A model generated the notes under the pieces. That model was not told the DNA's origin. It was given only the letters and a program-made list of their open reading frames with translations, and did not search any database. The translations under genes and the position numbers were made by a program. A DNA stretch of 64,000 bases, taken from the NCBI GenBank assembly GCA_963715895.1, contig OY970284.1, positions 4,899,892 to 4,963,891 on the forward strand, read 5' to 3'. The number at the start of each line of letters is the position of its first letter. Position 1 is the first letter of the stretch. Origin of the DNA: Thermoanaerobaculia bacterium. GTDB lineage: Bacteria > Acidobacteriota > Thermoanaerobaculia > Gp7-AA8. Shown piece by piece: positions 4,055-38,033 of the stretch.

Positions 4055-5401
4055 ATGACCGATGTCCGCTTCCCCGACGGCTTCGTCTGGGGCTCCGCAA
4101 CCGCGGCCTACCAGATCGAGGGAGCACCGCTCGCCGATGGCGCCGGCCCGAGCATCTGGCATCGCTTCAGCCACACCCCCGGACGCATGACCAACGGCGA
4201 CACCGGAGACGTCGCCTGCGATCACTATCATCTTTATAAGGACGATGTCGGCATCATGCGCGATCTCGGCCTGCAGGCGTATCGCTTCAGCATTTCCTGG
4301 AGCCGCATCCTCCCCGAGGGGACCGGACGCGTAAATCAGAAGGGACTCGATTTCTATCGCAGACTCGTCGACGCCCTGCGCGAAGCCGGTATCCTCCCGA
4401 TGGCGACGCTCTATCACTGGGACCTTCCCGGTGCCCTCGACGACCGCGGCGGCTGGCTTAACCGCGACGTCGCCGAGTGGTTCGCCGACTACGCGGCGAT
4501 TGCGTTTCAAGCCCTCGACGACAGCGTCGAGTGGTGGGCCACGCTCAACGAGCCGTGGGTGGTGACGGACGGCGGCTACCTCCACGGCGCGCTCGCTCCC
4601 GGCCATCGCAATCTCTTCGAGACGCCCATCGCCTCGCACAACCTCCTGCGCGCCCACGGCCGCGCCGTGGAGGTCTACCGCTCGATGGGAAAGCACGCCA
4701 TCGGCATCGTGGTGAACATCGAGCCGAAGTACCCAGGCTCACAAAGCGAGGAAGACCTCGCCGCCACCCGCCGCGCCGACGCCTACATGAATCGCCAGTA
4801 TCTCGACCCGATTTTTCGCGGCCGATACCCCGAGGAGATGGCCGACCTGTACGGCGAAGCGTGGCCGGACTTCCCCGCCGCCGATTTCGATCTGATCAAA
4901 CAGCCGCTCGATTTCGTCGGCATCAACTACTACCTGCGCGCGGTGACGAAGAACGATCCCGCCCAGATCATCGAGCGCGCCGCCCGCGTGCGCCAGCCGG
5001 GGTCGATCTACACGGAAACGGGATGGGAGGTGCACGCCCCCGCTCTGACCGACGTCCTCCTCTGGTTCCGCGACCGCTACGGCCCGACTCCGATTTACGT
5101 CACCGAAAACGGCGCCGCCTTCTACGACCCCCCGGTTGCCATCGACGGCACCGTCAACGACCCGCTCCGTATCCACTACCTGCGCGAGCACATCCTGGCC
5201 GTCCATCGCGCCATCGAACAAGGCGCCGACGTTCGCGGCTACTTCGTCTGGTCCCTCCTCGACAACCTGGAATGGTCCCTCGGCTACACCAAACGCTTCG
5301 GCATCGTGCACGTCGATTTCGCCACGCTGAAACGAACGCTGAAGGAGAGCGCGAAGTTCTACGCCGAGGTTGTGAGGACGGGCGGGAGGGCAGTGGGGTG
5401 A
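4055..5401 (+). CDS. GH1 family beta-glucosidase
   Basis: 448 aa with the GH1 hallmarks: TLNEPW (acid/base Glu) and YVTENG (nucleophile Glu). The N-terminus FVWGSATAAYQIEGA is typical. A GAGGAG RBS lies upstream. Confidence 0.93.
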   Translation: MTDVRFPDGFVWGSATAAYQIEGAPLADGAGPSIWHRFSHTPGRMTNGDTGDVACDHYHLYKDDVGIMRDLGLQAYRFSISWSRILPEGTGRVNQKGLDFYRRLVDALREAGILPMATLYHWDLPGALDDRGGWLNRDVAEWFADYAAIAFQALDDSVEWWATLNEPWVVTDGGYLHGALAPGHRNLFETPIASHNLLRAHGRAVEVYRSMGKHAIGIVVNIEPKYPGSQSEEDLAATRRADAYMNRQYLDPIFRGRYPEEMADLYGEAWPDFPAADFDLIKQPLDFVGINYYLRAVTKNDPAQIIERAARVRQPGSIYTETGWEVHAPALTDVLLWFRDRYGPTPIYVTENGAAFYDPPVAIDGTVNDPLRIHYLREHILAVHRAIEQGADVRGYFVWSLLDNLEWSLGYTKRFGIVHVDFATLKRTLKESAKFYAEVVRTGGRAVG

Positions 5402-5410
5402 GGCGCGACC

Positions 5411-5833
5411 CTACAAGATCGGCAACAAGCAGACGACGTCATCTCCACCCGCGGTTGCCAACGCACGATCGAAGGTAACGACCCGCCCTCCGTTTCGTCT
5501 TGCCAGGCCGAGCAGGTAGCGATCAGTCACGTGCTTCGCGGTCCCCGCGGATCGAAACTCCGGCAATACAGCCGGTGACACCGTGTCCGGCCACCAAACA
5601 TATCCACGTTTGGAGATCGTCAACATGAGCAATTCATCCGCCGTCGCTTCCGGAGTCCACCTTCCCCCTGGGAGCTGCGCGCAGACTCGAATCACACCCA
5701 ACTCTGTCACTATGCACGTCGCCCATCCCCCGGTGGCCGCCTCACTCGAAAACCAGTTCAGGGCCAGAGTGTGATGTTGATGCTCGGCGAGGAGCAGCGC
5801 CACCAGTACGTTGACATCTAGAAGCGCGACCAC
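5411..5833 (-). CDS. vapC: PIN-domain toxin (VapC-like)
   Basis: 140 aa. Acidic PIN positions are present: LLDVNVLV (Asp), IVTELG (Glu), HVTDRYL (Asp), TFDRAL. The gene sits 9 nt downstream of a small antitoxin gene. Confidence 0.8.
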   Translation of the reverse strand: MVALLDVNVLVALLLAEHQHHTLALNWFSSEAATGGWATCIVTELGVIRVCAQLPGGRWTPEATADELLMLTISKRGYVWWPDTVSPAVLPEFRSAGTAKHVTDRYLLGLARRNGGRVVTFDRALATAGGDDVVCLLPIL

Positions 5834-5841
5834 GCGACCAG

Positions 5842-6069
5842 CTACTCCGCGTCGCCATTCGCCAAACGATCAACATCCTCGACCGTGAGCACGGGAGCGC
5901 CAGGTCGCGGCGGAAATACGGGGACACCCCGCTCGAAACGGATGTCAGCCTCAGCCACGCGCCGGAGCAAGGCTTCAACGAAGTCGTCGACCGGTTGTCC
6001 CATCTGATTTGCCAGATTCGCGAGACGAGCCTTAAGAGCCTCATCTAGGGTGATGGTGGCGGTCGGCAT
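5842..6069 (-). CDS. vapB: antitoxin (VapB-like, RHH-type) paired with the PIN toxin
   Basis: 75 aa, MPTATITLDEALKARLANLA... with a beta-strand plus helices N-terminus. A strong AGGAGG RBS lies 7 nt upstream. The gene is immediately 5' of vapC in the same orientation. Confidence 0.65.
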   Translation of the reverse strand: MPTATITLDEALKARLANLANQMGQPVDDFVEALLRRVAEADIRFERGVPVFPPRPGAPVLTVEDVDRLANGDAE

Positions 6070-6548
6070 TACTCAAATCCTCCTGCTCGTCGCCCATCGT
6101 CGCACAAAGAACAGCAAATCGAACGGCGTGACTTGCTCCAGAATGCCTCCCCGCGCTTGACTCAAGGCGTGTACCACACCATCCTACCGTGCTGATGAAG
6201 TCCACCGTTTCCTCGAGGGTCAAATCGTCCTATCCGCACTCCGGGAGATGGACCACGTCGAACCTGGGGAGGAACTTAACGTCGAGCAACTCGACCCCCA
6301 GCGATAACTGGCTCGTGTGGCGGACCGCCCTGCCGAATGAGGGCGTCGTTGATTGGCTCCTCGCCTGCCCCGAGAAGGGATTCTTCGTCCCCATTGAATC
6401 CGAGTCGATCGACGTACCGCGAGACATCTGATCCTGCCAACGTCCTGGCCCGCAAAACCGGCCCCGCATCCGAGTGACCGCCGCCTCTGGGAAGCCAGGA
6501 GTTGTTGACCTCATAACCATCTTGACCAATCATGACGGCGAGGGGACC

Positions 6549-6852
6549 GTGGGAAGGGCACGCCAAGAAACGATCACCGTCGCTGAAACCAAAAAGTGGA
6601 TCTCGAGCCTGCTGAGACGTGTCGCTTTCGGCAAGGAAACGATTCTGATCACGAGGCCGAGGCCGCCCGATGGCCAAACTCATTCCTCCTGACGCTGAAC
6701 CTGTCGAGCCGGGTCTCGGGACCGTGCGGGGCTGGCTCCTCGCCGATGATCCTTTTCTGGCGGCCGTGGATGAGATTGTCACCGCGCGCGCCAGACACCG
6801 TTCGCGCGGAGCGTTGCCCAGGCCGCGCACCGAGCCGTCGGCGGTGAGGTAG
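6549..6852 (+). pseudogene. Phd/YefM-family antitoxin gene interrupted by a +1 frameshift
   Basis: Frame 1 encodes (GTG)GRARQETITVAETKKWISSLLRRVAFGKETILITR. After a 1-nt slip near 6657 the next frame continues RGRPMAKLIPPDAEPVEP.... Joined, this reproduces the Phd/YefM core ...vvITRRGkPvAvLvP. A 7-bp duplication GAGGCCGAGGCCG sits at the shift site. Confidence 0.55.
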
Positions 6853-7040
6853 CTGCTCGATACCGCGTCCTGTACGAGGTGATTCGGAAGGATCCGAACC
6901 GGGGGCTTATGCAACGGCTGGGCGAGATTGCGCCACGCGACGCGGTAACGTTGGTAATCTGCGTCGCGAAGCTCGCAACGGAATGGCTCGTGTTGTCCAC
7001 GGTGCGTGTCTCTAGGAACGAATTTCCCGCCAGATTCTGA
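6773..7040 (+). pseudogene. RelE/ParE-like toxin remnant (no start, N-terminal part out of frame)
   Basis: The frame contains ...HRAVGGEVAARYRVLYEVIRKDPNRG..., which resembles the RelE/ParE core (elRiGdyRviYrvdde). No start codon or N-terminal half exists in this frame. It lies directly after the broken Phd gene. Confidence 0.3.
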
Positions 7041-7081
7041 GTCACTCGAAATTCCTCCGCCCGGGAAGGAAAACGTTTGGA

Positions 7082-7999
7082 TTGTCCGTGAAGGGGTTCT
7101 ACTCGCAACACTCAAAGCTCAAATGCGAGCCGATCGGCGCGTCTGCCATGGTGGAGTTGACGAGCGACCTTCGCGATAGACCCAACGAAAGCACACATCG
7201 AAGAATTCAGGGATCCATCCTCTACCCTGGTTTTCAAAGTCCGCCGGAGTATGATACGTTTACAGCCTTCCGGTATATTTCCGCCAAGGGAACTAGAATG
7301 CTCGTCCAATCGTTCAGGAATGTCATGGAGTCGGCCGCCGCCGACCATTCGTTTCACAAAGCGTCCGGTTACATCGCTGATACAGATGCGTTGTTTTCCA
7401 GTGAGGCGATCGCTCAGTTGGAAAATGCCCATCACGGCTGCTTTGCATTTCTTGCGTTCGACGGGAAGGCCGATCCCATCGTAGCCCAATACGTCGCCGG
7501 TGGAACGCTGGCGGCGGATTCCGGATCGCGAGTCATGGTCTTGTTCACGGCGCAGGCATCTGTGTCTACGCCTCGGAAGCTGTCGCTGGGGATGCTGAAC
7601 GGCGCCGTCGTCATCGACGATGGCAAACATCCTGCCTATGACTGCGTCCGCAAACTTCTTCCCACAATTCCCGTACCGCCGTTACCGGCGGTTGTGGTGT
7701 TCGACCGCTTCACAGGAGGCGTTGAGCCGGTCGTCATTGGCATCGGCGACGCGACAACAACGGTCGAGTTGCGCACAAGGCTGCAGAAAGTATTCGGCGA
7801 TGCGGCGTCCCAGGTACGAGAGAGGGCTAGTGACACCAGCCGTGATTTTGCTACTCGGTTGAGCGCGGCTTTGGCGCGCGACGGCATCGAATACGAACGG
7901 AGCGGTGCGACATCGGTCCGGGAATGGCTGACGAACCTTTGGCAATGGGCGCGCCAGAATGTCAGCACTGTCGTCTCGATCGTGAAGCTTTTTGCGTGA
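7082..7999 (+). CDS. hypothetical protein (305 aa) in lower-GC islet
   Basis: Long ORF with no motif I recognise. GC is visibly lower than the flanks. It is the first gene of a two-gene overlapping operon. Confidence 0.5.
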   Translation: MSVKGFYSQHSKLKCEPIGASAMVELTSDLRDRPNESTHRRIQGSILYPGFQSPPEYDTFTAFRYISAKGTRMLVQSFRNVMESAAADHSFHKASGYIADTDALFSSEAIAQLENAHHGCFAFLAFDGKADPIVAQYVAGGTLAADSGSRVMVLFTAQASVSTPRKLSLGMLNGAVVIDDGKHPAYDCVRKLLPTIPVPPLPAVVVFDRFTGGVEPVVIGIGDATTTVELRTRLQKVFGDAASQVRERASDTSRDFATRLSAALARDGIEYERSGATSVREWLTNLWQWARQNVSTVVSIVKLFA

Positions 8000-9713
8000 G
8001 TGCGAATTGCGAAGCTCATCAAAAGCAGGCAAAGTACTCCGCCCGCTGGCCGAGCGGCTCTTCGCACAACTGCGAACCATGGGACAAGTGGCTGACCGGA
8101 AGTCAGCCGGCCCCGAGGACAACGCAATGCTCATCCAGAGGCTAAGCGCCGTCTTGAGCTTTCTCTACATTTTGGAAGCCCAAGCTGATTTGACATTCGA
8201 GGATGGCGAGGCGCCGATCCTCTACAACACGAAGGGATGGCCTGCCGGCTCTCCACCCGCGGGCTGGACGTCGATGAGCGCCGGCGTTCTGCCGTCACAA
8301 CTCGTGACATCCTGGCTCGCATTCTGGACGGGGAGCGCGTTTGAGGAAGAAAAACGGCCGTCTGTTCGCCGCCTCGTCAAAGCCGCCGGCTGGCTTCTGA
8401 TGACAACGGATCTGGCCACGGCGATCAGATACCTTTTCGATCTCCTGCGGAGTGGAGTCGTGATCGACGAAGATGACGTTGCACAATCCGCCGACGCGCT
8501 AATCAGGGCATATCGTGCTGCGGCCGATGACGACGACGTACCGCACCTGATCTTCGGTCAGGCATTGCCGCTCGCGCCGGCCATGCTAATCGACGCGGAC
8601 CCATCCTACGTCGGCAATCGGCAGCTCAGGCGGCCGTTGCCACCCGACATCGGCGAAATCCTGATTCAGACGGCAATCGATGAAATCGACCACACACGCG
8701 AGACAACTAGCTACGATACGTGGTTCGTTCAGCAGATCGTCCTCGGGAAAGTATTAGGGGCCGTAGGATCATTGCTGACGGAACATGCCCCCCCCACCCC
8801 GGGCCTGACCGCTCTTCTCGATCAATTCGAGGAGATGACGGCTGACGGTTTCGGCATACGTCTCGTGACCGCAGCCTATGGAATGGTCGAGCAGATTACG
8901 ACCTTTTCTCATTCGTTCTCGCTGATTTTTAAGGGCTCCGGTGATCCCGATTGGCGTGATAGATTCCTAACCGAGCGGGCGCTCGTCCCGAATTCAATCT
9001 CCGGCCTGCTCCTCGACGCGCCAGCGGCACTCCCACCGGAATGGCAGGGCATTTCTTCCGAGCTTGCTCCAGCCGTTGCCACGGTCGTACTCCGCGGCGG
9101 CGATCATTTCAGCCTATCTCGTCAAGTACCGTTTACCCCTGCAGAGCTGATCGCTTCAGAGAGAGTGAGAAAAATTCTCGCAGAAATCAGCATCGTCGAT
9201 GATTCAACAGCGCTCGCTGCTGTCTGCGACCTCCTCGATACGGCAAGACCAGAGCCTGCACAGAAAGCGAACGTGGACCTGGATCAACTGCTCGGTTCTG
9301 ATGTGACAACGTCGTCATCGACAGAAGAAGACGCGCGCGGCGCTAAACGCGAAGCTCGCGATGATTTCAAAGCCAGGTTGCTGCTTGCTGCGGCGATCGA
9401 CGAAGCGAATCCTCAGATCAAACACTCGATGAACGCACTCTATGCTGATCGCATACGCCAACTTGAAGGATTGGCCGGACTTTATCCCTGGCACGCCTCG
9501 ATTCAGTTAGAGCTTGCCATCGCCCTCGACGAAAATGGTGAGCACGGACGCGCTCTCAATCACATTGAAAAAGCGCTCATGCTCGAGCCTATGGAATCGC
9601 TGCACTGGCACTCGTTCAGCGTCATTTTGTTACACGAGTCCCTGCCTGACGAAGCCCGGATCGCCTTCATGATGAAAGAATGGCTCGCTTCGCGCGCTGA
9701 CCGCGCCGAGTAG
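7992..9713 (+). CDS. hypothetical protein (573 aa) with helical/TPR-like C-terminus
   Basis: The start overlaps the upstream gene by 8 nt. The C-terminal ~120 aa look like TPR-like helical repeats (ALYADRIRQLEGLAGLYPWHASIQLELAIALDENGEHGRALNHIEKALMLEP). Confidence 0.55.
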   Translation: MRECELRSSSKAGKVLRPLAERLFAQLRTMGQVADRKSAGPEDNAMLIQRLSAVLSFLYILEAQADLTFEDGEAPILYNTKGWPAGSPPAGWTSMSAGVLPSQLVTSWLAFWTGSAFEEEKRPSVRRLVKAAGWLLMTTDLATAIRYLFDLLRSGVVIDEDDVAQSADALIRAYRAAADDDDVPHLIFGQALPLAPAMLIDADPSYVGNRQLRRPLPPDIGEILIQTAIDEIDHTRETTSYDTWFVQQIVLGKVLGAVGSLLTEHAPPTPGLTALLDQFEEMTADGFGIRLVTAAYGMVEQITTFSHSFSLIFKGSGDPDWRDRFLTERALVPNSISGLLLDAPAALPPEWQGISSELAPAVATVVLRGGDHFSLSRQVPFTPAELIASERVRKILAEISIVDDSTALAAVCDLLDTARPEPAQKANVDLDQLLGSDVTTSSSTEEDARGAKREARDDFKARLLLAAAIDEANPQIKHSMNALYADRIRQLEGLAGLYPWHASIQLELAIALDENGEHGRALNHIEKALMLEPMESLHWHSFSVILLHESLPDEARIAFMMKEWLASRADRAE

Positions 9714-9865
9714 TTGGGGGCACAGAAACATATGTTTGATCTGGACTGCTGACGCCCATGTACGCCGCCGCTCCCAACCAAAGAGGACCACGCTGAACTA
9801 CTCTGTTTGACCGAACCCATCGCTCGGAGGAATGGTTCACCCATTGCAAACGAAGGAGGACCAAC

Positions 9866-10339
9866 ATGGCCACGAAGAAGACAACCAAGGCAAAGTCACC
9901 CGCGAAGAAGGCGACGAAACGGCCGGCCCCGAAGAAGGCGAAAGCGGACAACACGCTTCGTCTCACCTCGGCCAGCCCCAGCTTCACCGTCAACGACATC
10001 GAGAAGAGCCTGGCCTGGTATCGAGACGTCCTCGGTTTGACTGTCAGTGAGCGGTGGGAGGACGGCGGCAAGCTGCTGGGCGTCGAGATGGCCGCCGGCG
10101 ATGTGTCGTTCATGATCGGGCAGGACGACTGGAAGAAGGGGCGCGATCGGGTCAAGGGCGTCGGCGTGCGACTGTACTGCATGACCGATCAGGACATCGA
10201 TACGCTCGCGGCGCGGATCAAGGCGAACGGCGGAACGCTGGAGGGACCGATGGACACGCAGTGGGGCACCCGTGAGTTGGCGGTCGACGATCCGGACGGA
10301 TACAAGATCACCATCGCGAAAGAGACCAGGAAGCGGTAG
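9866..10339 (+). CDS. VOC (glyoxalase/bleomycin-resistance fold) protein with Lys/Ala/Pro-rich histone-H1-like N-terminal tail
   Basis: A GAAGGAGG RBS precedes the gene. The N-terminus MATKKTTKAKSPAKKATKRPAPKKAKA is followed by a VOC-like core (FTVNDIEKSLAWYRDVLGLTV ... GVRLYCMTDQDID ... LAVDDPDGYKITI). Confidence 0.7.
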   Translation: MATKKTTKAKSPAKKATKRPAPKKAKADNTLRLTSASPSFTVNDIEKSLAWYRDVLGLTVSERWEDGGKLLGVEMAAGDVSFMIGQDDWKKGRDRVKGVGVRLYCMTDQDIDTLAARIKANGGTLEGPMDTQWGTRELAVDDPDGYKITIAKETRKR

Positions 10340-10371
10340 CCGCGAATCCCGTTCACCGCAACGTTAGCTTC

Positions 10372-11418
10372 GTGGCGATACAAGGGCTGAGCATGCATAA
10401 TGTCAGTCGCGCACTCCTCATCCTTGTCTGCACGATCGGTCTAACCGCAAGTGCCGCGGACCTCGCCTACACCATTCACATGCAAGCGCTGCCAGGCGCC
10501 AGTGCTGACGGGATCGGGATGGACTACATCAGCTTCGATCCCGGCACGCACACGGTCTGGGTTCCGGCGGGGAACACCGGCGCGGTCGACGTCGTCGATC
10601 CTGCGAACGGCAAGGTGCGGCAGATCACCGGCTTCCCGACGGCGGAGATGGGGAGCGGCGACCGGAAGCGCGTCGTCGGTCCCAGCTCCGTCACCATTGG
10701 CAGCGGAACGATCTATATCGGCAACCGCGGCGACTCCACCGTATGCGCCGTGAACCCGAAGACGCTCGTGCGCGGCACCTGTCACAAGGTCGACTCGATG
10801 CCCGACGGCCTCGCCTACGTTGCGTCGACGAAGGAAGTGTGGGTGACGACGCCACGCGACAAATCGATCCGCATCCTCGATGCGGTCACGCTGAACGAAA
10901 AGGCCAAGCTCACCTTCGACGGCAATCCCGAGGGCTTCGCTGTCGATGGGAAGCGCGGCCGCTTTTATACCAACATGGAAGACAAAGACCTGACGCTGGC
11001 CATCGATCTGAAGTCGCACAAGACGGTGGCCACCTGGAAGCCGGCCTGCGGGGAGGACGGTCCGCACGGATTGCGCGTCGACGAGAAAGCGGGCCAGCTC
11101 TTCATCGCCTGCAGTGCGCGCGCCGAGGTAATGGACGTGGCCCACGACGGCGCGGTGCTCTCGTCGATCGATACCGGCGACGGTGTTGACGACATCGACT
11201 ACAGCGATGCCACACATCTGCTGTATGTCGGCGCGGCCAAGGCCGGCCTGCTCACAGTTGCCCGCGCCGACGCCAACGGCAAGCTGGTCATCGTGGCCAA
11301 GGTACCGACGCACACCGGCGCCCGGAACCCCGCGGTCACGAGTGACGGAACGGTCTACCTGGCACACTCAGGGCTCGGTAAGCTTAGCGATCTGGTCGTA
11401 GCAACGCCGAGGAAGTAG
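10372..11418 (+). CDS. secreted YVTN-family beta-propeller repeat protein
   Basis: A signal-peptide-like N-terminus (the true start may be the internal ATG at 10393, MHNVSRALLILVCTIGLTASA) is followed by repeated short beta-blade segments (GAVDVVDPANGKV, DGLAYVASTKEVWV, GFAVDGKRGRFY). Confidence 0.65.
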   Translation: MAIQGLSMHNVSRALLILVCTIGLTASAADLAYTIHMQALPGASADGIGMDYISFDPGTHTVWVPAGNTGAVDVVDPANGKVRQITGFPTAEMGSGDRKRVVGPSSVTIGSGTIYIGNRGDSTVCAVNPKTLVRGTCHKVDSMPDGLAYVASTKEVWVTTPRDKSIRILDAVTLNEKAKLTFDGNPEGFAVDGKRGRFYTNMEDKDLTLAIDLKSHKTVATWKPACGEDGPHGLRVDEKAGQLFIACSARAEVMDVAHDGAVLSSIDTGDGVDDIDYSDATHLLYVGAAKAGLLTVARADANGKLVIVAKVPTHTGARNPAVTSDGTVYLAHSGLGKLSDLVVATPRK

Positions 11419-34293: not shown

Positions 34294-36024
34294 TCACACC
34301 GATTGAATGGCACGCATGAGGTCGACGAGGCCGCTTCCCTGGAAATATCGCTCGCGTTTCAAGTCGGTCGCAGAGTTGGTGAAGATCGACTTCACTTCGT
34401 CTGGGCGCCCGATGAACTCCTGCCGGATCGAAAGGAACGCGGCGATGGCGCCGGAGACGTGCGGCGCGGCCATGCTCGTTCCGCTGTCCTGGACGTACCA
34501 GGCCGTATCGGTGTTAGCACCCGGCGGATTCGGATCGACAGCGGTCACCTTCGACGGAGCGGCGGAAGAGAGGATCTTCTCGCCGGGCGCGACCAGGTCG
34601 GGCTTAAGTCGCCCGTCGCCCGTCGGTCCCTTCGAAGAAAAATATGAGACGCCGTAGACGTGCGGCATGTCGCGGTGCGTCGACCCGACGGTGATGGCGA
34701 AATCGGCATTGCCCGGATCGTTGATGGTAAGGGGCGCGCCCGCCGAAACGACGCCCCGCGCGAGCGTCTTCGTGAAAACGTAGCCGGTATTGCCCGCTGC
34801 TACCACGACGATCACTCCTGAGCGGACAAGGCGGTTCACCTCGACACACAGCGGACTTTGACCGCACGCGAACCACTCGGGGTCGAAGTCGTAGCCCAGG
34901 GACATATTCACGCCATGAACGAGCAACTTCCGGCCGTAGCCGTTGATCTGCTGGATATACGCCGTGGCTGCGATCAGATTCGACACTTCTCCGTTGCCAC
35001 TGTCATCGAGCACCTTCAGGCTCAACAGCTTGCATCGCGGAGCAACGCCGGCGATGGCGTCGAGCGGCGCGACCCGCTGCTGAATGTTGTTGCCGTCGTC
35101 GCGATAGGCACTCTGCGTGCGAATGGCTGTTCCACGGTGAGTGACCTTATCTCCATCCTGTATCGGAGGCGCGGCGGTGACTGCACCGGCAATGATTCCG
35201 GCGACGTGCGTGCCGTGACCAAAGCCATCGTGTTTGGCATTCCCGTTTCCGTTCAGGGCCGTGAAATCGCGATGGACGAGCGGAAGGTCGACGTCGAGAG
35301 TTCCGTATGTCTTGAAATGGGGGTGATCGCCCTCGATGCCGGAATCCAAGACAGCCCAGACCACTCCATCGCCGAGGGCGGAGAAAGCGCGGTGCGCGGC
35401 GTCAGCCTTAACCGTCGTGAGGGAGCGCGAGATTAGCGGCCGAAGCGGAAAATCGAGCCAGATGTGGTAGATCGCGCGCTGTTTGGCGTGTTCTCCGAAT
35501 TCCGCACGCTCACGGTCGAGCTCCAGCAACTCCGCCATCGCATGCGGGTCCGCCTCAGCGGTCGTCTCGCTAAGATCGCTCTCCGTGATCAGCAGCCGTG
35601 AATCGAGGTCTACGAGCCGCGCGATGCTCTCTGCGGAGAGCCGGGCAAAGATGTGCTGCTCCGACATCTTGCTCTTGGAGTTATTGATGCCCTCGGGCGG
35701 CACGGGCTCTCGCCCGCCGAAAACCTGGTTGAGGAGACGCCGGACCTTGTTCTCCGCGGCCTGCGTTCCGCCGCGCGCCTCGACATTGAGGTCGATGATG
35801 ACGGGATACGGAGAGGTCACCTTCCTCAGTTGGGGATTATTACGCCGGACACGCTCTGTCGTTCCGTCCCGACGTTCCTCCTCGATGAAATCCGATAGCG
35901 GAGGGGCGATGACCGCGGAGTGCATCTGTTCGGGCCTGAATTCGTTGAGGTCGTCGAGACCGTCCGGCGGCGTTTCGTTTTCGCCCATGTCAACTCTCCC
36001 ACTCAATATGGAGTGACGCGGCAA
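34294..36024 (-). CDS. S8 family (subtilisin-like) serine peptidase with ~200-aa N-terminal extension, apparently cytoplasmic
   Basis: Catalytic triad motifs AVLDSGI (Asp), HGTHVAGII (His) and GTSMAAPHVSG (Ser). No signal peptide. The stop is 12 nt upstream of the hydrolase start. Confidence 0.85.
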   Translation of the reverse strand: MPRHSILSGRVDMGENETPPDGLDDLNEFRPEQMHSAVIAPPLSDFIEEERRDGTTERVRRNNPQLRKVTSPYPVIIDLNVEARGGTQAAENKVRRLLNQVFGGREPVPPEGINNSKSKMSEQHIFARLSAESIARLVDLDSRLLITESDLSETTAEADPHAMAELLELDRERAEFGEHAKQRAIYHIWLDFPLRPLISRSLTTVKADAAHRAFSALGDGVVWAVLDSGIEGDHPHFKTYGTLDVDLPLVHRDFTALNGNGNAKHDGFGHGTHVAGIIAGAVTAAPPIQDGDKVTHRGTAIRTQSAYRDDGNNIQQRVAPLDAIAGVAPRCKLLSLKVLDDSGNGEVSNLIAATAYIQQINGYGRKLLVHGVNMSLGYDFDPEWFACGQSPLCVEVNRLVRSGVIVVVAAGNTGYVFTKTLARGVVSAGAPLTINDPGNADFAITVGSTHRDMPHVYGVSYFSSKGPTGDGRLKPDLVAPGEKILSSAAPSKVTAVDPNPPGANTDTAWYVQDSGTSMAAPHVSGAIAAFLSIRQEFIGRPDEVKSIFTNSATDLKRERYFQGSGLVDLMRAIQSV

Positions 36025-36181
36025 GGGATTTCCCTACCCGGCGTAGCGCTGCGGCATCCGCACCATCGCCGCCAGCTCACCCATGCACCCGCAGCCCGGT
36101 CGCCTCTCGTCAAACTTCGCGGAACCGAGTCTCAAAGTCCCCGATGTGGGCGCGGCTATTTAGCGCCGCGCCCACATTTTC

Positions 36182-37660
36182 TCATTTCGAGCTGATGAGC
36201 TTCGTCAGATCGGGTAACCGGTAACTCAGTCCGACGTGAGCGCCGATTCGGTTTTTCACGTCGCCGATGAACTCCGCTTTGTTGGCCCAGGTGATCGACA
36301 CCGGGATCGTCATCATGTCGCCAAATGGGACCGAGAGCGTGATCGTACCGACCCAACGGTTGTTGCTCCGCACGTTGCCTTTTTGATTGAAGCCGCCTTC
36401 GATTGACAGATCGGCGTGCAGCGGCTTGCCGGTGATGTCGGTACCGAGTTGCCGCCCACCTTGTGCTTTGACTTTCAGCACGTCACTCTGCGGATTGTTG
36501 ATGGCCATGAAACCCTCCACCGGCGGATCAAGTCCGAGGGATGCGAGAGAGTAGTGCTGCGCGCGGTCGTACGACGCCGTGAAGACGAGCTTGTCGGTCG
36601 ACATCCCGTTCGTCGCGTATTCGTTGAGCTGAGTGCGAAAACAGGAGCCGATAGCAATGTCTGTGCGCTCGTCCCGACACGCGTTACGGAGAGTGTTCAT
36701 GTTTACGCGGCCAAAGTGCAGTTCGACGGAAGCCGCCTGCGAGCGCGGTCCGCCGAAAAGCGCCGGATGATGCACCGTGATCGTTCCGGTAGCCTGCGGC
36801 TGGTTGTCAATCATCGTCGCGATCAAGTCGAGGTGATTGGCGTCGTAGATCGCTTTCGCGGTCTTGGCACGCGCGGCATCAACCGCTATCTCCTCCTTAA
36901 TGATCGCGATCACCTCATTCGGGTGATCCGCCTTGCCCACAATTCGTTTGTTGTCTTCGCCAGCTTCATGGTACTCATCACTCAGCCTTTTTGCCAACAA
37001 AGCAGACGCACCATTGCTCTGCACGAACGCCTCAAGGAGCAGCGATACCAGCGGCCGGTATGCGGCCGGCGTACGCCCCCAGCATCTGTCACCTGCTGGA
37101 CGATCAGGCCCGCATCGAACTGTCGCCGCGGAGTAGGATGCGGAAAACGTAAGATCGTTCTGGCTCCCGATCCGTTTTTCCAATGCCGTGACAGTCTTAT
37201 CGCGAATACCATCGGGGATGGCGTTCTTCACAACGTCGGCAACAGCCGGTTGCGTCACGGTCAACGTTGTACCGATGAGCGTGCTGCCTTGACGCAATGG
37301 ATTGAAACGGACGATGAGCGCCTGCCCGTTATCCGACTCGTCCACCTTGTTGATGGCAAAGCTGAAGAGATTCAGGAAGTCTTCGTACGAGTTGTGAATG
37401 CGCGCCGCGAAGGTAGGTGGCGCAACAGTTGGACGATTCGCCGTAACGACGTCGTTCTCTTGTTTGGCTTGCGCCGTCGCGACTGCGTTTTTCCCGGCGG
37501 CGAGTTGGGCCTGCGGTGTCGCCATCTGAGCCAGGTAGAAGGCTTTTGCCCCTTCGAAGGTGCAATGTTCCTTGTCGACAGTGGGATCGCACGGTGTCAC
37601 CACCTCACCAAACACGCTGGTGGCGACGAACATAAAGAATGGAATCAGAAGTCGTTTCAT
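36182..37660 (-). CDS. secreted hypothetical protein (~492 aa)
   Basis: The start is taken at MKRLLIPFFMFVATSVFG (signal peptide; AAGGAG RBS upstream) rather than the upstream extension of the listed ORF. No known motif. Confidence 0.55.
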   Translation of the reverse strand: MKRLLIPFFMFVATSVFGEVVTPCDPTVDKEHCTFEGAKAFYLAQMATPQAQLAAGKNAVATAQAKQENDVVTANRPTVAPPTFAARIHNSYEDFLNLFSFAINKVDESDNGQALIVRFNPLRQGSTLIGTTLTVTQPAVADVVKNAIPDGIRDKTVTALEKRIGSQNDLTFSASYSAATVRCGPDRPAGDRCWGRTPAAYRPLVSLLLEAFVQSNGASALLAKRLSDEYHEAGEDNKRIVGKADHPNEVIAIIKEEIAVDAARAKTAKAIYDANHLDLIATMIDNQPQATGTITVHHPALFGGPRSQAASVELHFGRVNMNTLRNACRDERTDIAIGSCFRTQLNEYATNGMSTDKLVFTASYDRAQHYSLASLGLDPPVEGFMAINNPQSDVLKVKAQGGRQLGTDITGKPLHADLSIEGGFNQKGNVRSNNRWVGTITLSVPFGDMMTIPVSITWANKAEFIGDVKNRIGAHVGLSYRLPDLTKLISSK

Positions 37661-37670
37661 GGTCTGCTCC

Positions 37671-38033
37671 TTACAGCGGGCTGAATTCCCATGTCGGCTC
37701 ATTGAGCGTATCGGGATCGAGGTCCACCACATGATGCGAGGGGTCGATCGCCGTCTCAAACGTCACCGTCGTATCGAGCGTTGTGGCACTACTCGCTGTC
37801 GCCGCGATTGCGATTTGATAGTGCTGATTCCCAGCGGCGTCGAAATCGAATGACACTCCGTGCTCGAGGTCGTCCGAGGTCCACGTCTCTCTGAGAGTGA
37901 CAGGAGCATCCGGATCGGTGACGTCCTGGTAGAAGAAGAGCTTCCCGGCATAACCGGTAACGTTGTCTCCAGGTGTCGTCGTAAAACTGACCTTGTTGGG
38001 TGCCGGAACAGTGTAGCGGCCAATAGCGGGCAT
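37671..38033 (-). CDS. hypothetical small protein (120 aa), co-oriented 10 nt upstream of the secreted protein gene
   Basis: A GGAGG RBS precedes the ATG. The protein is acidic and Thr-rich with no known motif. Confidence 0.45.
   Translation of the reverse strand: MPAIGRYTVPAPNKVSFTTTPGDNVTGYAGKLFFYQDVTDPDAPVTLRETWTSDDLEHGVSFDFDAAGNQHYQIAIAATASSATTLDTTVTFETAIDPSHHVVDLDPDTLNEPTWEFSPL

What the first reader, a model, noticed from the sequence alone, without database searches (positions are those of the whole stretch)
7082..9713. Lower-GC two-gene operon of unknown function embedded among toxin-antitoxin loci
A 305-aa and a 573-aa protein (8-nt overlap) have no recognisable motifs, apart from TPR-like helices at the C-terminus of the second. 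The pair lies in a block whose GC content is clearly below the neighbourhood. It sits immediately beside an intact VapBC pair and a decayed Phd/ParE pair. TA modules and defence genes cluster in islands, so this pair is a plausible uncharacterised accessory or defence module.
Basis: partly seen in the sequence, partly recalled or inferred. Interest (0 to 1): 0.55.

Follow-up and report, generated by a model that had tools for sequence, protein, structure and literature searches.

The report
Mobile two-gene cassette, unknown families
A real, horizontally acquired pair of genes that always travel together in soil bacteria: a cysteine-less thioredoxin-like protein, and a larger protein with a helical domain matching no solved or viral-predicted structure plus three TPR repeats. 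Neither belongs to any described family, and their function is not established.

Summary
Both ORFs are real and conserved. Homologues move the starts: gene A is most likely 7298-7999 (233 aa, not 305), and gene B 8007 or 7992 to 9713 (568 or 573 aa).

The A-then-B order holds in all 14 independent loci examined, from Acidobacteriota and Actinomycetota. The two genes overlap or lie at most 22 nt apart, and no third gene is conserved beside them.

Neither protein matches Pfam, NCBIfam, PHROGs or PDB sequences. PADLOC gave only weak hits for a few B relatives. AlphaFold2 models are confident:
- A (pLDDT 85.5) has a thioredoxin-like core without CxxC, plus a helical extension.
- B (pLDDT 94) has a non-repetitive all-alpha N-domain of about 440 aa that matched nothing in PDB or BFVD, plus three TPRs.

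The low GC is real. The region is 57.6% against 63.5% for the window, and GC3 is 0.63-0.67 against a mean of 0.78.

A close relative has bgl, a MazE/AbrB-type VapB with a PIN VapC, then the glyoxalase gene, and no pair. So the cassette entered a toxin-antitoxin hotspot. The decayed neighbour is Phd plus a PIN-like fragment, not ParE, and there is also a decayed AbrB-type vapB.

"Accessory and horizontally acquired" is supported. "Defence" is untested and has no recognisable effector. My best guess is a cytoplasmic A-B complex with a conflict or stress role.

The parts
7298..7999 (+). Gene A: a 233-aa, cysteine-motif-free protein with a thioredoxin-like fold and a C-terminal helical extension. 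The maximal ORF runs from TTG 7082.
   Evidence: The start is set by homologues. The family has 21 proteins. AF2 gives pLDDT 85.5 and pTM 0.86. The Foldseek top list is dominated by thioredoxin-fold proteins, but the best E-value is only 0.66. There is no Pfam, NCBIfam, PHROGs, PADLOC or PDB-sequence match.
8007..9713 (+). Gene B: 568 aa from TTG 8007, or 573 aa if it starts at TTG 7992. The public annotation starts at ATG 8079, which is too short.
   Evidence: The N-terminus aligns with homologues. The family has 191 representative clusters at E<=1e-10. AF2 gives pLDDT 94.1 and pTM 0.93.
7992..9311 (+). N-terminal domain of B, about 440 aa, all-alpha and non-repetitive, with one small beta-hairpin. 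Conserved motifs are YNTxxWP...PPAGY, YDxW, QxEEIxAD and ERxLVP.
   Evidence: Foldseek found no structural match outside the TPR part in PDB or BFVD; global TM was about 0.16. The profile had no PDB sequence hit at E<=10 and no Pfam hit in 17 members. hhalign found no internal repeat and no TPR likeness.
9441..9710 (+). C-terminal module of B with three TPR repeats (residues about 484-572).
   Evidence: The family profile hits consensus TPR proteins in PDB at E 6e-31 to 1e-8. Foldseek gives TM 0.8-0.87 to CTPR3-type proteins. Pfam TPR models hit 15 of 60 family members. The window protein alone is below the Pfam cut-off.
7251..7279 (+). Sigma-70-like promoter candidate 19 nt upstream of ATG 7298.
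   Evidence: One site was found against 1.2 expected by chance, so this is only suggestive. AAGGGA at 7286-7291 is a possible ribosome-binding site, read.
6470..9860 (.). Segment that replaces the body of a vapC gene relative to a close relative. It carries the decayed Phd/PIN-like remnant and the A-B cassette, and it has low GC.
   Evidence: blastn against L018 aligns window 6156-6470 to L018 3758-4079 and window 9962-10342 to L018 4661-5047, with nothing in between.
6549..6852 (+). Decayed Phd/YefM antitoxin gene, frameshifted near 6650.
   Evidence: Pfam PhdYeFM E 3.5e-4 on frame 6474-6692. A hand-joined peptide scores 28.7 bits on TIGR01552, above its cut-off of 20.8. The join was approximated by hand.
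6853..7040 (+). Truncated, frameshifted toxin fragment that looks like a PIN (VapC) N-terminus, not ParE.
   Evidence: BLASTP to the L018 VapC N-terminus gives 38% identity over 26 aa, E 1e-4 for a single comparison. There is no Pfam or NCBIfam hit. The evidence is weak.
6156..6470 (+). Decayed MazE/AbrB-type vapB, plus the first codons of its vapC.
   Evidence: 69.5% nucleotide identity to the intact L018 gene. The L018 proteins are PF04014 and PIN. Frameshifts and a stop were read.
5411..6069 (-). Intact VapBC pair (RHH antitoxin and PIN toxin). It is a neighbour, not part of the cassette.
   Evidence: A VapB orthologue with 81% aa identity sits at the same place in relative L017.

Best explanation
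Shown: genes A and B form a self-contained, tightly coupled two-gene cassette. Both protein families are absent from every curated library searched. The cassette is strictly co-inherited in the order A then B, and this acidobacterial genome acquired it horizontally. It landed in a variable, toxin-antitoxin-rich spot between a conserved beta-glucosidase gene and a glyoxalase gene.

Inferred: the two soluble, acidic cytoplasmic proteins form a heteromeric complex. B would act as the scaffold or sensor. Its three TPRs are a peptide-binding module, and the conserved face of its N-domain (E281, D285, R329 and several invariant Trp and Gly residues) would be the functional site. A is a thioredoxin-fold protein that cannot do thiol chemistry. 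Its invariant D59 and the PPLP loop appear, from the order of secondary-structure elements, to occupy the positions of the CxxC motif and the cis-proline loop of thioredoxins. Coordinates were not inspected. A would use that pocket to bind B or a ligand.

The most likely biological role is an accessory conflict or stress function, such as phage defence or another response to foreign elements, rather than housekeeping. I put about 0.9 on the 'shown' part. I put about 0.35 on the complex-plus-conflict mechanism.
For: - Adjacency in the order A then B in 14 of 14 independent loci, with gaps from -4 to +22 nt.
- No conserved third gene in those neighbourhoods (same calls).
- The closest A pairs are also the closest B pairs: window/L001/L004, L016/L097 and L009/L098. 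Pearson r is 0.80, driven by a few close pairs; rank correlation is weak.
- Confident AF2 models.
- TPR module confirmed.
- Thioredoxin-fold proteins make up about half of A's top 50 Foldseek hits.
- There is no conserved cysteine, and two members have none at all.
- Invariant D59, Y65, D74, G76 and PPLP in A.
- Invariant G91, G155, E281, D285 and R329 in B.
- Both proteins are mostly acidic.
- Horizontal acquisition is supported by low GC and GC3, by absence from close relatives L017 and L018 at the same locus, and by pair GC 6-9 points below the flanks in 6 of 10 genomes.
- Mobile-element neighbours occur in some loci: a transposase, a serine recombinase and a PIN_4 protein in L097, an FtsK/SpoIIIE cluster in L009, and a tRNA 3' fragment upstream in L004 and L005.
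Against: - No nuclease, NTPase, TIR, SIR2, protease, pore or other effector-like domain was recognised in either protein.
- PADLOC has no match for the window proteins. Six of 60 B relatives hit the candidate PDC-M71B weakly (best E 3.9e-4), probably through the TPR part.
- Most other neighbourhoods are ordinary accessory or metabolic genes with no defence genes.
- The pair is absent from sequenced plasmids, phages and IMG/VR contigs.
- The thioredoxin-fold assignment rests on topology and on enrichment in the hit list. No single hit is significant (best E 0.66, TM 0.3/0.5).
- Formation of an A-B complex was not tested.
Confidence: 0.4

Rival explanations
1. Addiction (toxin-antitoxin-like) cassette. 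One protein is growth-inhibitory and the other neutralises it by direct binding. This would stabilise the cassette wherever it lands.
For: It is a compact, translationally coupled two-gene unit. In the window it sits in a toxin-antitoxin hotspot and apparently replaced a vapC gene. Its distribution is patchy and horizontal.
Against: Both proteins are far larger than typical type II partners. A has no recognised DNA-binding fold (RHH, HTH, AbrB or Phd) by Pfam, NCBIfam or Foldseek, and B has no known toxin fold. Outside this window the neighbours are not toxin-antitoxin genes. In 2 of 14 loci B is split into two frames while A is intact; both are draft assemblies, so these may be errors.
Confidence: 0.15
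2. Split proteostasis factor analogous to CnoX/YbbN. A redox-inactive thioredoxin-fold protein and a TPR protein would cooperate as a holdase or co-chaperone, or as an assembly factor for a client protein.
For: CnoX/YbbN proteins combine a thioredoxin domain with a TPR domain (PMC10998233, PMC8129009, found). A has a thioredoxin-like core lacking CxxC, and B ends in TPRs. The top Foldseek hit of A is the non-catalytic, substrate-binding b' domain of a PDI-like protein.
Against: A does not match the Pfam Thioredoxin models in any of 20 members. About 440 of B's residues form an unrelated domain with no known counterpart. The distribution is sporadic and horizontal, not that of a housekeeping chaperone. 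No client gene is syntenic.
Confidence: 0.15
3. Niche enzyme system. The N-domain of B would be an all-alpha enzyme of unrecognised type, with the invariant acidic and basic residues (QxEEIxAD, ERxLVP, YDxW) as its catalytic or metal-binding site. A would be its regulatory or substrate-presenting subunit, for example in small-molecule modification or resistance.
For: E281, D285 and R329 are strictly invariant across 60 sequences that share only 22-41% identity with the window protein. The N-domain is compact, confidently modelled and non-repetitive. One locus lies next to a PKS/NRPS cluster, and others lie near efflux or regulator genes.
Against: There is no structural similarity to any known all-alpha enzyme in the PDB. 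No metabolic neighbour recurs. The invariant charged residues could equally form a structural salt bridge or a protein-binding site.
Confidence: 0.15
4. Not a functional unit: chance ORFs or decaying genes inside a junk region.
For: The surroundings hold three decayed toxin-antitoxin genes. Both start codons are uncertain.
Against: Both proteins are conserved over their full length at 22-58% identity across two phyla. The AF2 models have high pLDDT. The GC1/GC2/GC3 pattern is that of coding sequence. There are no internal stops.
Confidence: 0.02

Closest known systems
CnoX/YbbN chaperedoxins (thioredoxin domain fused to a TPR domain; PMC10998233, PMC8129009)
   Same: Both combine a thioredoxin-type fold lacking the canonical CxxC with a short TPR module. 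Both are cytoplasmic, soluble and acidic.
   Different: CnoX is one polypeptide of about 280 aa that standard thioredoxin and TPR models recognise. Here there are two genes. A matches no thioredoxin HMM. B carries a 440-aa N-domain with no counterpart in CnoX. The distribution is sporadic and horizontal.
Redox-inactive thioredoxin-fold domains, such as the b' domain of the PDI-like protein PDILT (PDB 4nwy)
   Same: This is the best Foldseek hit of A. The beta-alpha-beta-alpha-beta-beta-alpha order is the same, there is no catalytic cysteine, and a conserved proline-rich loop sits where the cis-proline loop lies.
   Different: The match is not significant (E 0.66, TM 0.30/0.49, 12% identity). 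A has extra N- and C-terminal elements, including three helices and a terminal strand.
Two-gene defence operons made of a small partner plus a TPR protein, such as BcTir/BcTpr (bioRxiv 10.1101/2023.05.26.542521)
   Same: Both are two-gene operons with a small protein and a larger TPR-bearing protein. Both have an accessory distribution.
   Different: There is no TIR or other effector domain here. The TPR part is only three repeats at the C-terminus. No anti-phage activity has been tested.
Type II toxin-antitoxin modules (VapBC, Phd-VapC) that flank it
   Same: Both are compact, coupled two-gene cassettes. They share the same insertion hotspot and are horizontally mobile.
   Different: The protein sizes differ (233 and about 570 aa), and the folds differ. 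There is no DNA-binding antitoxin domain and no PIN, ParE, Doc or RelE toxin fold.
PADLOC candidate system protein PDC-M71B
   Same: Six of 60 B-family members give weak hits (best E 3.9e-4).
   Different: The window protein does not hit it. The A family has no hit at all. The similarity is most likely confined to the TPR part, though the hit positions were not shown.

Membership tests
Thioredoxin-fold superfamily (gene A) | Central beta-sheet with beta-alpha-beta-alpha-beta-beta-alpha topology and a cis-proline loop before the third core strand | tested here: inconclusive
   The DSSP order in the AF2 model is E48-53, H60-75, E79-85, H112-120, the PPLP loop, E131-135, E145-148, H155-176. About half of the top 50 Foldseek hits are thioredoxin-fold proteins, but the best E-value is 0.66 and TM is 0.3/0.5.
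Thioredoxin-fold superfamily (gene A) | Redox-active CxxC (or CxxS/SxxC) motif at the N-terminus of the first core helix | tested here: not met
   That position reads DGKADP, with D59 invariant. No cysteine is conserved, and two family members have none.
Thioredoxin-fold superfamily (gene A) | Match to a curated thioredoxin-like sequence model | tested here: not met
   No Pfam hit in 20 of 20 members at E<=5. No NCBIfam hit. No PDB sequence hit.
TPR repeat proteins (C-terminus of gene B) | Tandem 34-residue helix-turn-helix repeats matching TPR models | tested here: met
   The family profile against PDB consensus TPR proteins gives E 6e-31 to 1e-8. Foldseek gives TM 0.8-0.87 and rmsd 1.5-1.8 A to CTPR3-type proteins. 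Pfam TPR models hit up to 15 of 60 members. The window protein alone scores 15.3 bits, below the cut-off of 27.
CnoX/YbbN chaperedoxin | Thioredoxin domain and TPR domain in one polypeptide, both recognisable by sequence models | tested here: not met
   The two parts are on separate genes. A has no thioredoxin model match. Most of B is an unrelated domain.
Type II toxin-antitoxin system | Small antitoxin with a DNA-binding fold plus a toxin of a known fold | tested here: not met
   There are no such domains in A or B. The flanking VapB, VapC and Phd genes are readily recognised by the same tools.
Type II toxin-antitoxin system | Toxicity of one partner that is neutralised by the other | not testable with these tools
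   This needs expression experiments.
Known or candidate anti-phage defence systems (PADLOC-DB v2.0.0) | HMM match of the component proteins | tested here: not met
   The window proteins have no match at E<=1. The A family has 0 of 20. The B family has only weak hits, 6 of 60 to PDC-M71B. Systems described after 2023 are not covered.
Known or candidate anti-phage defence systems | Recurrent location in defence islands | tested here: inconclusive
   The window locus is a toxin-antitoxin hotspot. L097 has a PIN_4 protein, a transposase and a recombinase. L016 has an nSTAND NTPase 6 kb away. Six other neighbourhoods show no defence genes. The sample is too small for statistics.
Known or candidate anti-phage defence systems | Protection against phage | not testable with these tools
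   This needs phage challenge experiments.

The most novel reading that the evidence does not exclude
The cassette is a previously undescribed two-protein conflict system, either anti-phage or anti-mobile-element defence or a new addiction module. Its sensor or effector would be built on a helical fold that matched nothing in PDB or BFVD, partnered with a cysteine-less thioredoxin-fold subunit. It would be shared horizontally between Acidobacteriota and Actinomycetota.
Probability: 0.25. Interest if true: 0.75.

Novelty: categorically new. Interest (0 to 1): 0.45.

Why it matters
If the pair has a defined activity, it would add two protein families to the map. One of them has a confidently modelled 440-residue domain with no counterpart in the PDB or BFVD. 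It would also add a new two-component module that moves between soil phyla.

It is also a clean example of an insertion hotspot. The same slot between a beta-glucosidase gene and a glyoxalase gene holds different toxin-antitoxin modules in close relatives, and here it holds this cassette.

The limits are real. No function is shown, and conserved 'hypothetical' operons are common. The 'categorically new' rating describes distance from described families, not a demonstrated new mechanism.

Tried and rejected
Searches and tests that led nowhere:
- Pfam, NCBIfam, PHROGs and PADLOC scans of the window proteins and of whole family alignments gave nothing beyond TPR.
- PDB sequence-profile searches with four alignments gave only TPR hits.
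- Foldseek against PDB for A and B, and against BFVD for B, gave only TPR hits and weak thioredoxin-like hits.
- I looked for extra domains in the ten longest B relatives and found none.
- In L014, an upstream 275-aa plus 592-aa gene pair was tested as a possible paralogue and is unrelated.
- The N-domain of B has no internal repeats and no cryptic TPRs.
- No direct or inverted repeats flank the cassette beyond chance matches.
- The window has no tRNA genes, and Rfam matched nothing at 5300-10400.
- The upstream regions of the four closest loci share no conserved motif.
- tblastn against plasmids and phages, and an IMG/VR scan, found no relatives.
- A literature search for a described thioredoxin-like plus TPR anti-phage pair found nothing.
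- The genome-contig scan needed a narrow alignment and returned only three loci.
- A look-up of ten B relatives returned unnamed metagenomic clusters of one or two members, so their taxonomy remains unknown.

Rejected readings:
- ParE as the identity of the decayed toxin.
- 305 aa as the length of gene A.
- Chance ORFs.
Full report
**Observation.** The two maximal ORFs exist as described, at 7082-7999 and 7992-9713. Homologues redefine both starts.
- Every relative of the first protein begins MLVQSF/MLVxS, which corresponds to ATG 7298 and gives 233 aa.
- The 72 codons upstream of 7298 are not conserved. The public annotation (224 aa) starts 9 codons too late.
- For the second protein the annotated start (ATG 8079, 544 aa) cuts off a conserved N-terminus (VLRPLAE..F.Q...G).
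- TTG 8007 yields MRSSSKAGKVLRPLAE, which is collinear with MRTSAKGEAVLRPLAE in relatives.

**Composition.** The region is 57.6% GC against 63.5% for the window. That puts it in the lowest 1% of same-size windows. GC3 is 0.63-0.67 against 0.778 +/- 0.059 for 40 coding-like ORFs of the window. Only the adjacent vapC is as low.

**Neighbours.** VapBC at 5411-6069 is intact, with a PIN and an RHH domain. Three decayed toxin-antitoxin genes lie between it and the pair:
- A MazE/AbrB-type vapB at 6156-6470. It has 69.5% nucleotide identity to an intact gene in a relative, and it carries frameshifts and a stop.
- A frameshifted Phd at about 6549-6852.
- A truncated fragment at 6853-7040. Its LLDT...EVIRKDPN sequence resembles a PIN N-terminus rather than ParE, though the evidence is weak.

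**Origin of the locus.** The flanking beta-glucosidase and LacI genes belong to 90%-identity clusters named after Acidobacteriota or Thermoanaerobaculia MAGs. I fetched 80 metagenomic loci around bgl relatives.
- The two closest loci have 86-87% aa identity in bgl, and both lack the pair.
- L018 reads LacI, bgl, two small ORFs, MazE-type VapB, PIN VapC, glyoxalase.
- L017 reads bgl, then an RHH VapB with 81% identity, then unrelated genes.
- At the DNA level the window matches L018 up to about 6470, inside the 5' end of vapC. The match resumes at 9962, inside the glyoxalase gene.

About 3.4 kb has therefore replaced the body of vapC in a slot that holds different toxin-antitoxin modules in relatives. 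That 3.4 kb carries the Phd/PIN remnant and the A-B cassette. No flanking repeats or tRNA genes mark the event.

**Distribution and linkage.** Word-seeded searches found only two or three relatives of each protein. A profile of A reached 21 proteins, including Pseudofrankia, Kocuria, Nonomuraea and Streptomyces. An exhaustive HMMER profile search with B found 402 representative clusters at E<=1e-3 and 191 at E<=1e-10 among 1.84 billion. Those I looked up were unnamed metagenomic clusters of one or two members.

In all 14 independent loci for which DNA was obtained, A lies immediately upstream of B on the same strand. Spacing runs from a 4-nt overlap to 22 nt.

No third gene recurs. Neighbours range from seryl-tRNA synthetase to giant surface proteins, efflux pumps, a PKS/NRPS cluster and regulators. 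Some loci touch mobile DNA:
- L097 has a transposase directly upstream, with a serine recombinase and a PIN_4 protein nearby.
- L009 has an FtsK/SpoIIIE gene cluster.
- L004 and L005 have a tRNA 3'-end-like fragment about 260 bp upstream, with no intact tRNA.

The pair is 6-9 GC points below its flanks in 6 of 10 genomes. It was not found on sequenced plasmids, phages or IMG/VR contigs.

**What the proteins are.** Neither matches Pfam, NCBIfam, PHROGs or PADLOC, as single sequences or across their families. The exceptions are TPR models at B's C-terminus and weak hits of six B relatives to the PADLOC candidate PDC-M71B.

- **Protein A.**
  - AlphaFold2 with a 20-sequence alignment gives pLDDT 85.5 and pTM 0.86.
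  - The secondary-structure order is that of a thioredoxin fold, followed by three helices and a terminal strand that appears placed to pair with the N-terminal strand.
  - Foldseek finds no significant PDB match (best E 0.66). About half of the top 50 hits are thioredoxin-fold proteins: PDILT b', GPX8, plasmoredoxin, peroxiredoxins, Tpx and thioredoxin.
  - There is no CxxC. By the order of secondary-structure elements, invariant D59 sits at that position, and the invariant PPLP sits where the cis-proline loop would be.
  - Two members contain no cysteine at all.
- **Protein B.**
  - AlphaFold2 with 60 sequences gives pLDDT 94.1 and pTM 0.93.
  - The last 90 residues or so are three TPRs, with TM 0.8-0.87 to CTPR3 and profile E 6e-31 against consensus TPR proteins.
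  - The first 440 residues or so are a compact all-alpha domain with one beta-hairpin.
  - That domain has no structural match in PDB or BFVD and no PDB sequence match.
  - It also has no internal repeats and no likeness to TPR.
  - G91, G155, E281, D285 and R329 are invariant across 60 sequences, within the motifs PPAGY, QxEEIxAD and ERxLVP.

Both proteins are mostly acidic, and I saw no signal peptide or membrane segment by eye (not tested with a predictor).

**How it most likely works.** Strict co-occurrence, fixed order and tight spacing argue for co-translation and a physical A-B complex. This is an inference and was not tested. TPR modules bind peptides, so B is best read as a scaffold or sensor. 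A would be a non-redox thioredoxin-fold partner that uses the conserved pocket at the former active-site position.

The population-level behaviour fits an accessory conflict or stress module better than housekeeping. The pair is horizontally acquired, patchy across two phyla, compositionally foreign in most hosts, and sits in variable or mobile regions. Against a defence role, there is no recognisable effector, no convincing PADLOC match, and no recurrent defence neighbourhood.

Three rivals remain open and are scored separately: a toxin-antitoxin-like addiction module, a split CnoX-like proteostasis factor, and an enzyme of unrecognised type with a regulatory subunit. The 'chance ORF' reading is excluded by conservation and by the quality of the models.

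**Comparison with known systems.** The nearest analogy in domain logic is CnoX/YbbN, which joins a thioredoxin domain to a TPR domain (PMC10998233, PMC8129009). The pair fails that family's defining features. It is two genes, A has no thioredoxin model match, and B has a large unrelated domain. It also fails the defining features of type II toxin-antitoxin systems and of all PADLOC v2 systems. At fold level, the TPR part is a member of a known class, A is probably a divergent thioredoxin fold, and B's N-domain is unplaced.

**Verdict.** The 'defence' half is open. The families are undescribed in every library searched, hence the novelty rating. With no function shown, interest is moderate.

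Noticed in passing
window 6156-6470: A decayed MazE/AbrB-type vapB with frameshifts and a stop. The intact counterpart, with its PIN partner, sits at the same position in relative L018 (3795-4432).
   Followed up: yes
window 6549-7040: The decayed module next to the pair is a frameshifted Phd antitoxin followed by a truncated fragment that resembles a PIN (VapC) N-terminus, not ParE. The toxin assignment is weak.
   Followed up: partly
window 7298 and 8007/7992 versus the public annotation: The public gene calls for both proteins (224 aa and 544 aa) start downstream of N-terminal residues that are conserved across the families. They appear to be mis-called.
   Followed up: yes
L004 9719-9743; L005 5-29: A tRNA 3'-end-like fragment (GGTTCAAATCCCGTATGCGCTACCA) lies about 260 bp upstream of the homologous pair. 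ARAGORN and Rfam call no intact tRNA. It may be an att-site remnant of an integrated element.
   Followed up: partly
L012 5193-6664; L013 9767-11202: In two loci, a MAG and a Streptomyces draft assembly labelled 'barcode24', the B homologue is split into two overlapping frames while A is intact. This could be assembly error or pseudogenisation.
   Followed up: no
L097 7142-9393 and 16524-17840: The homologous pair is bracketed by a Transposase_29 gene and a large serine recombinase, with a PIN_4 protein nearby. This suggests carriage on a mobile element in that genome.
   Followed up: no
window about 36000-38000 and 60400-63000: Two more low-GC blocks (about 58% and 57-59%) are as deviant as the one studied. 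ORFs there (36185-37762, 61486-61962) also have low GC3 (0.69).
   Followed up: no
L018 3205-3706 (minus strand): Two small adjacent ORFs (89 and 75 aa) with no Pfam match sit between bgl and the VapBC pair in the relative. They may be another small toxin-antitoxin-like pair in the same hotspot.
   Followed up: partly
B-family members (alignment A6): Six of 60 B relatives give weak hits (best E 3.9e-4) to the PADLOC candidate-system protein PDC-M71B. The region responsible was not shown; it is probably the TPR part.
   Followed up: no
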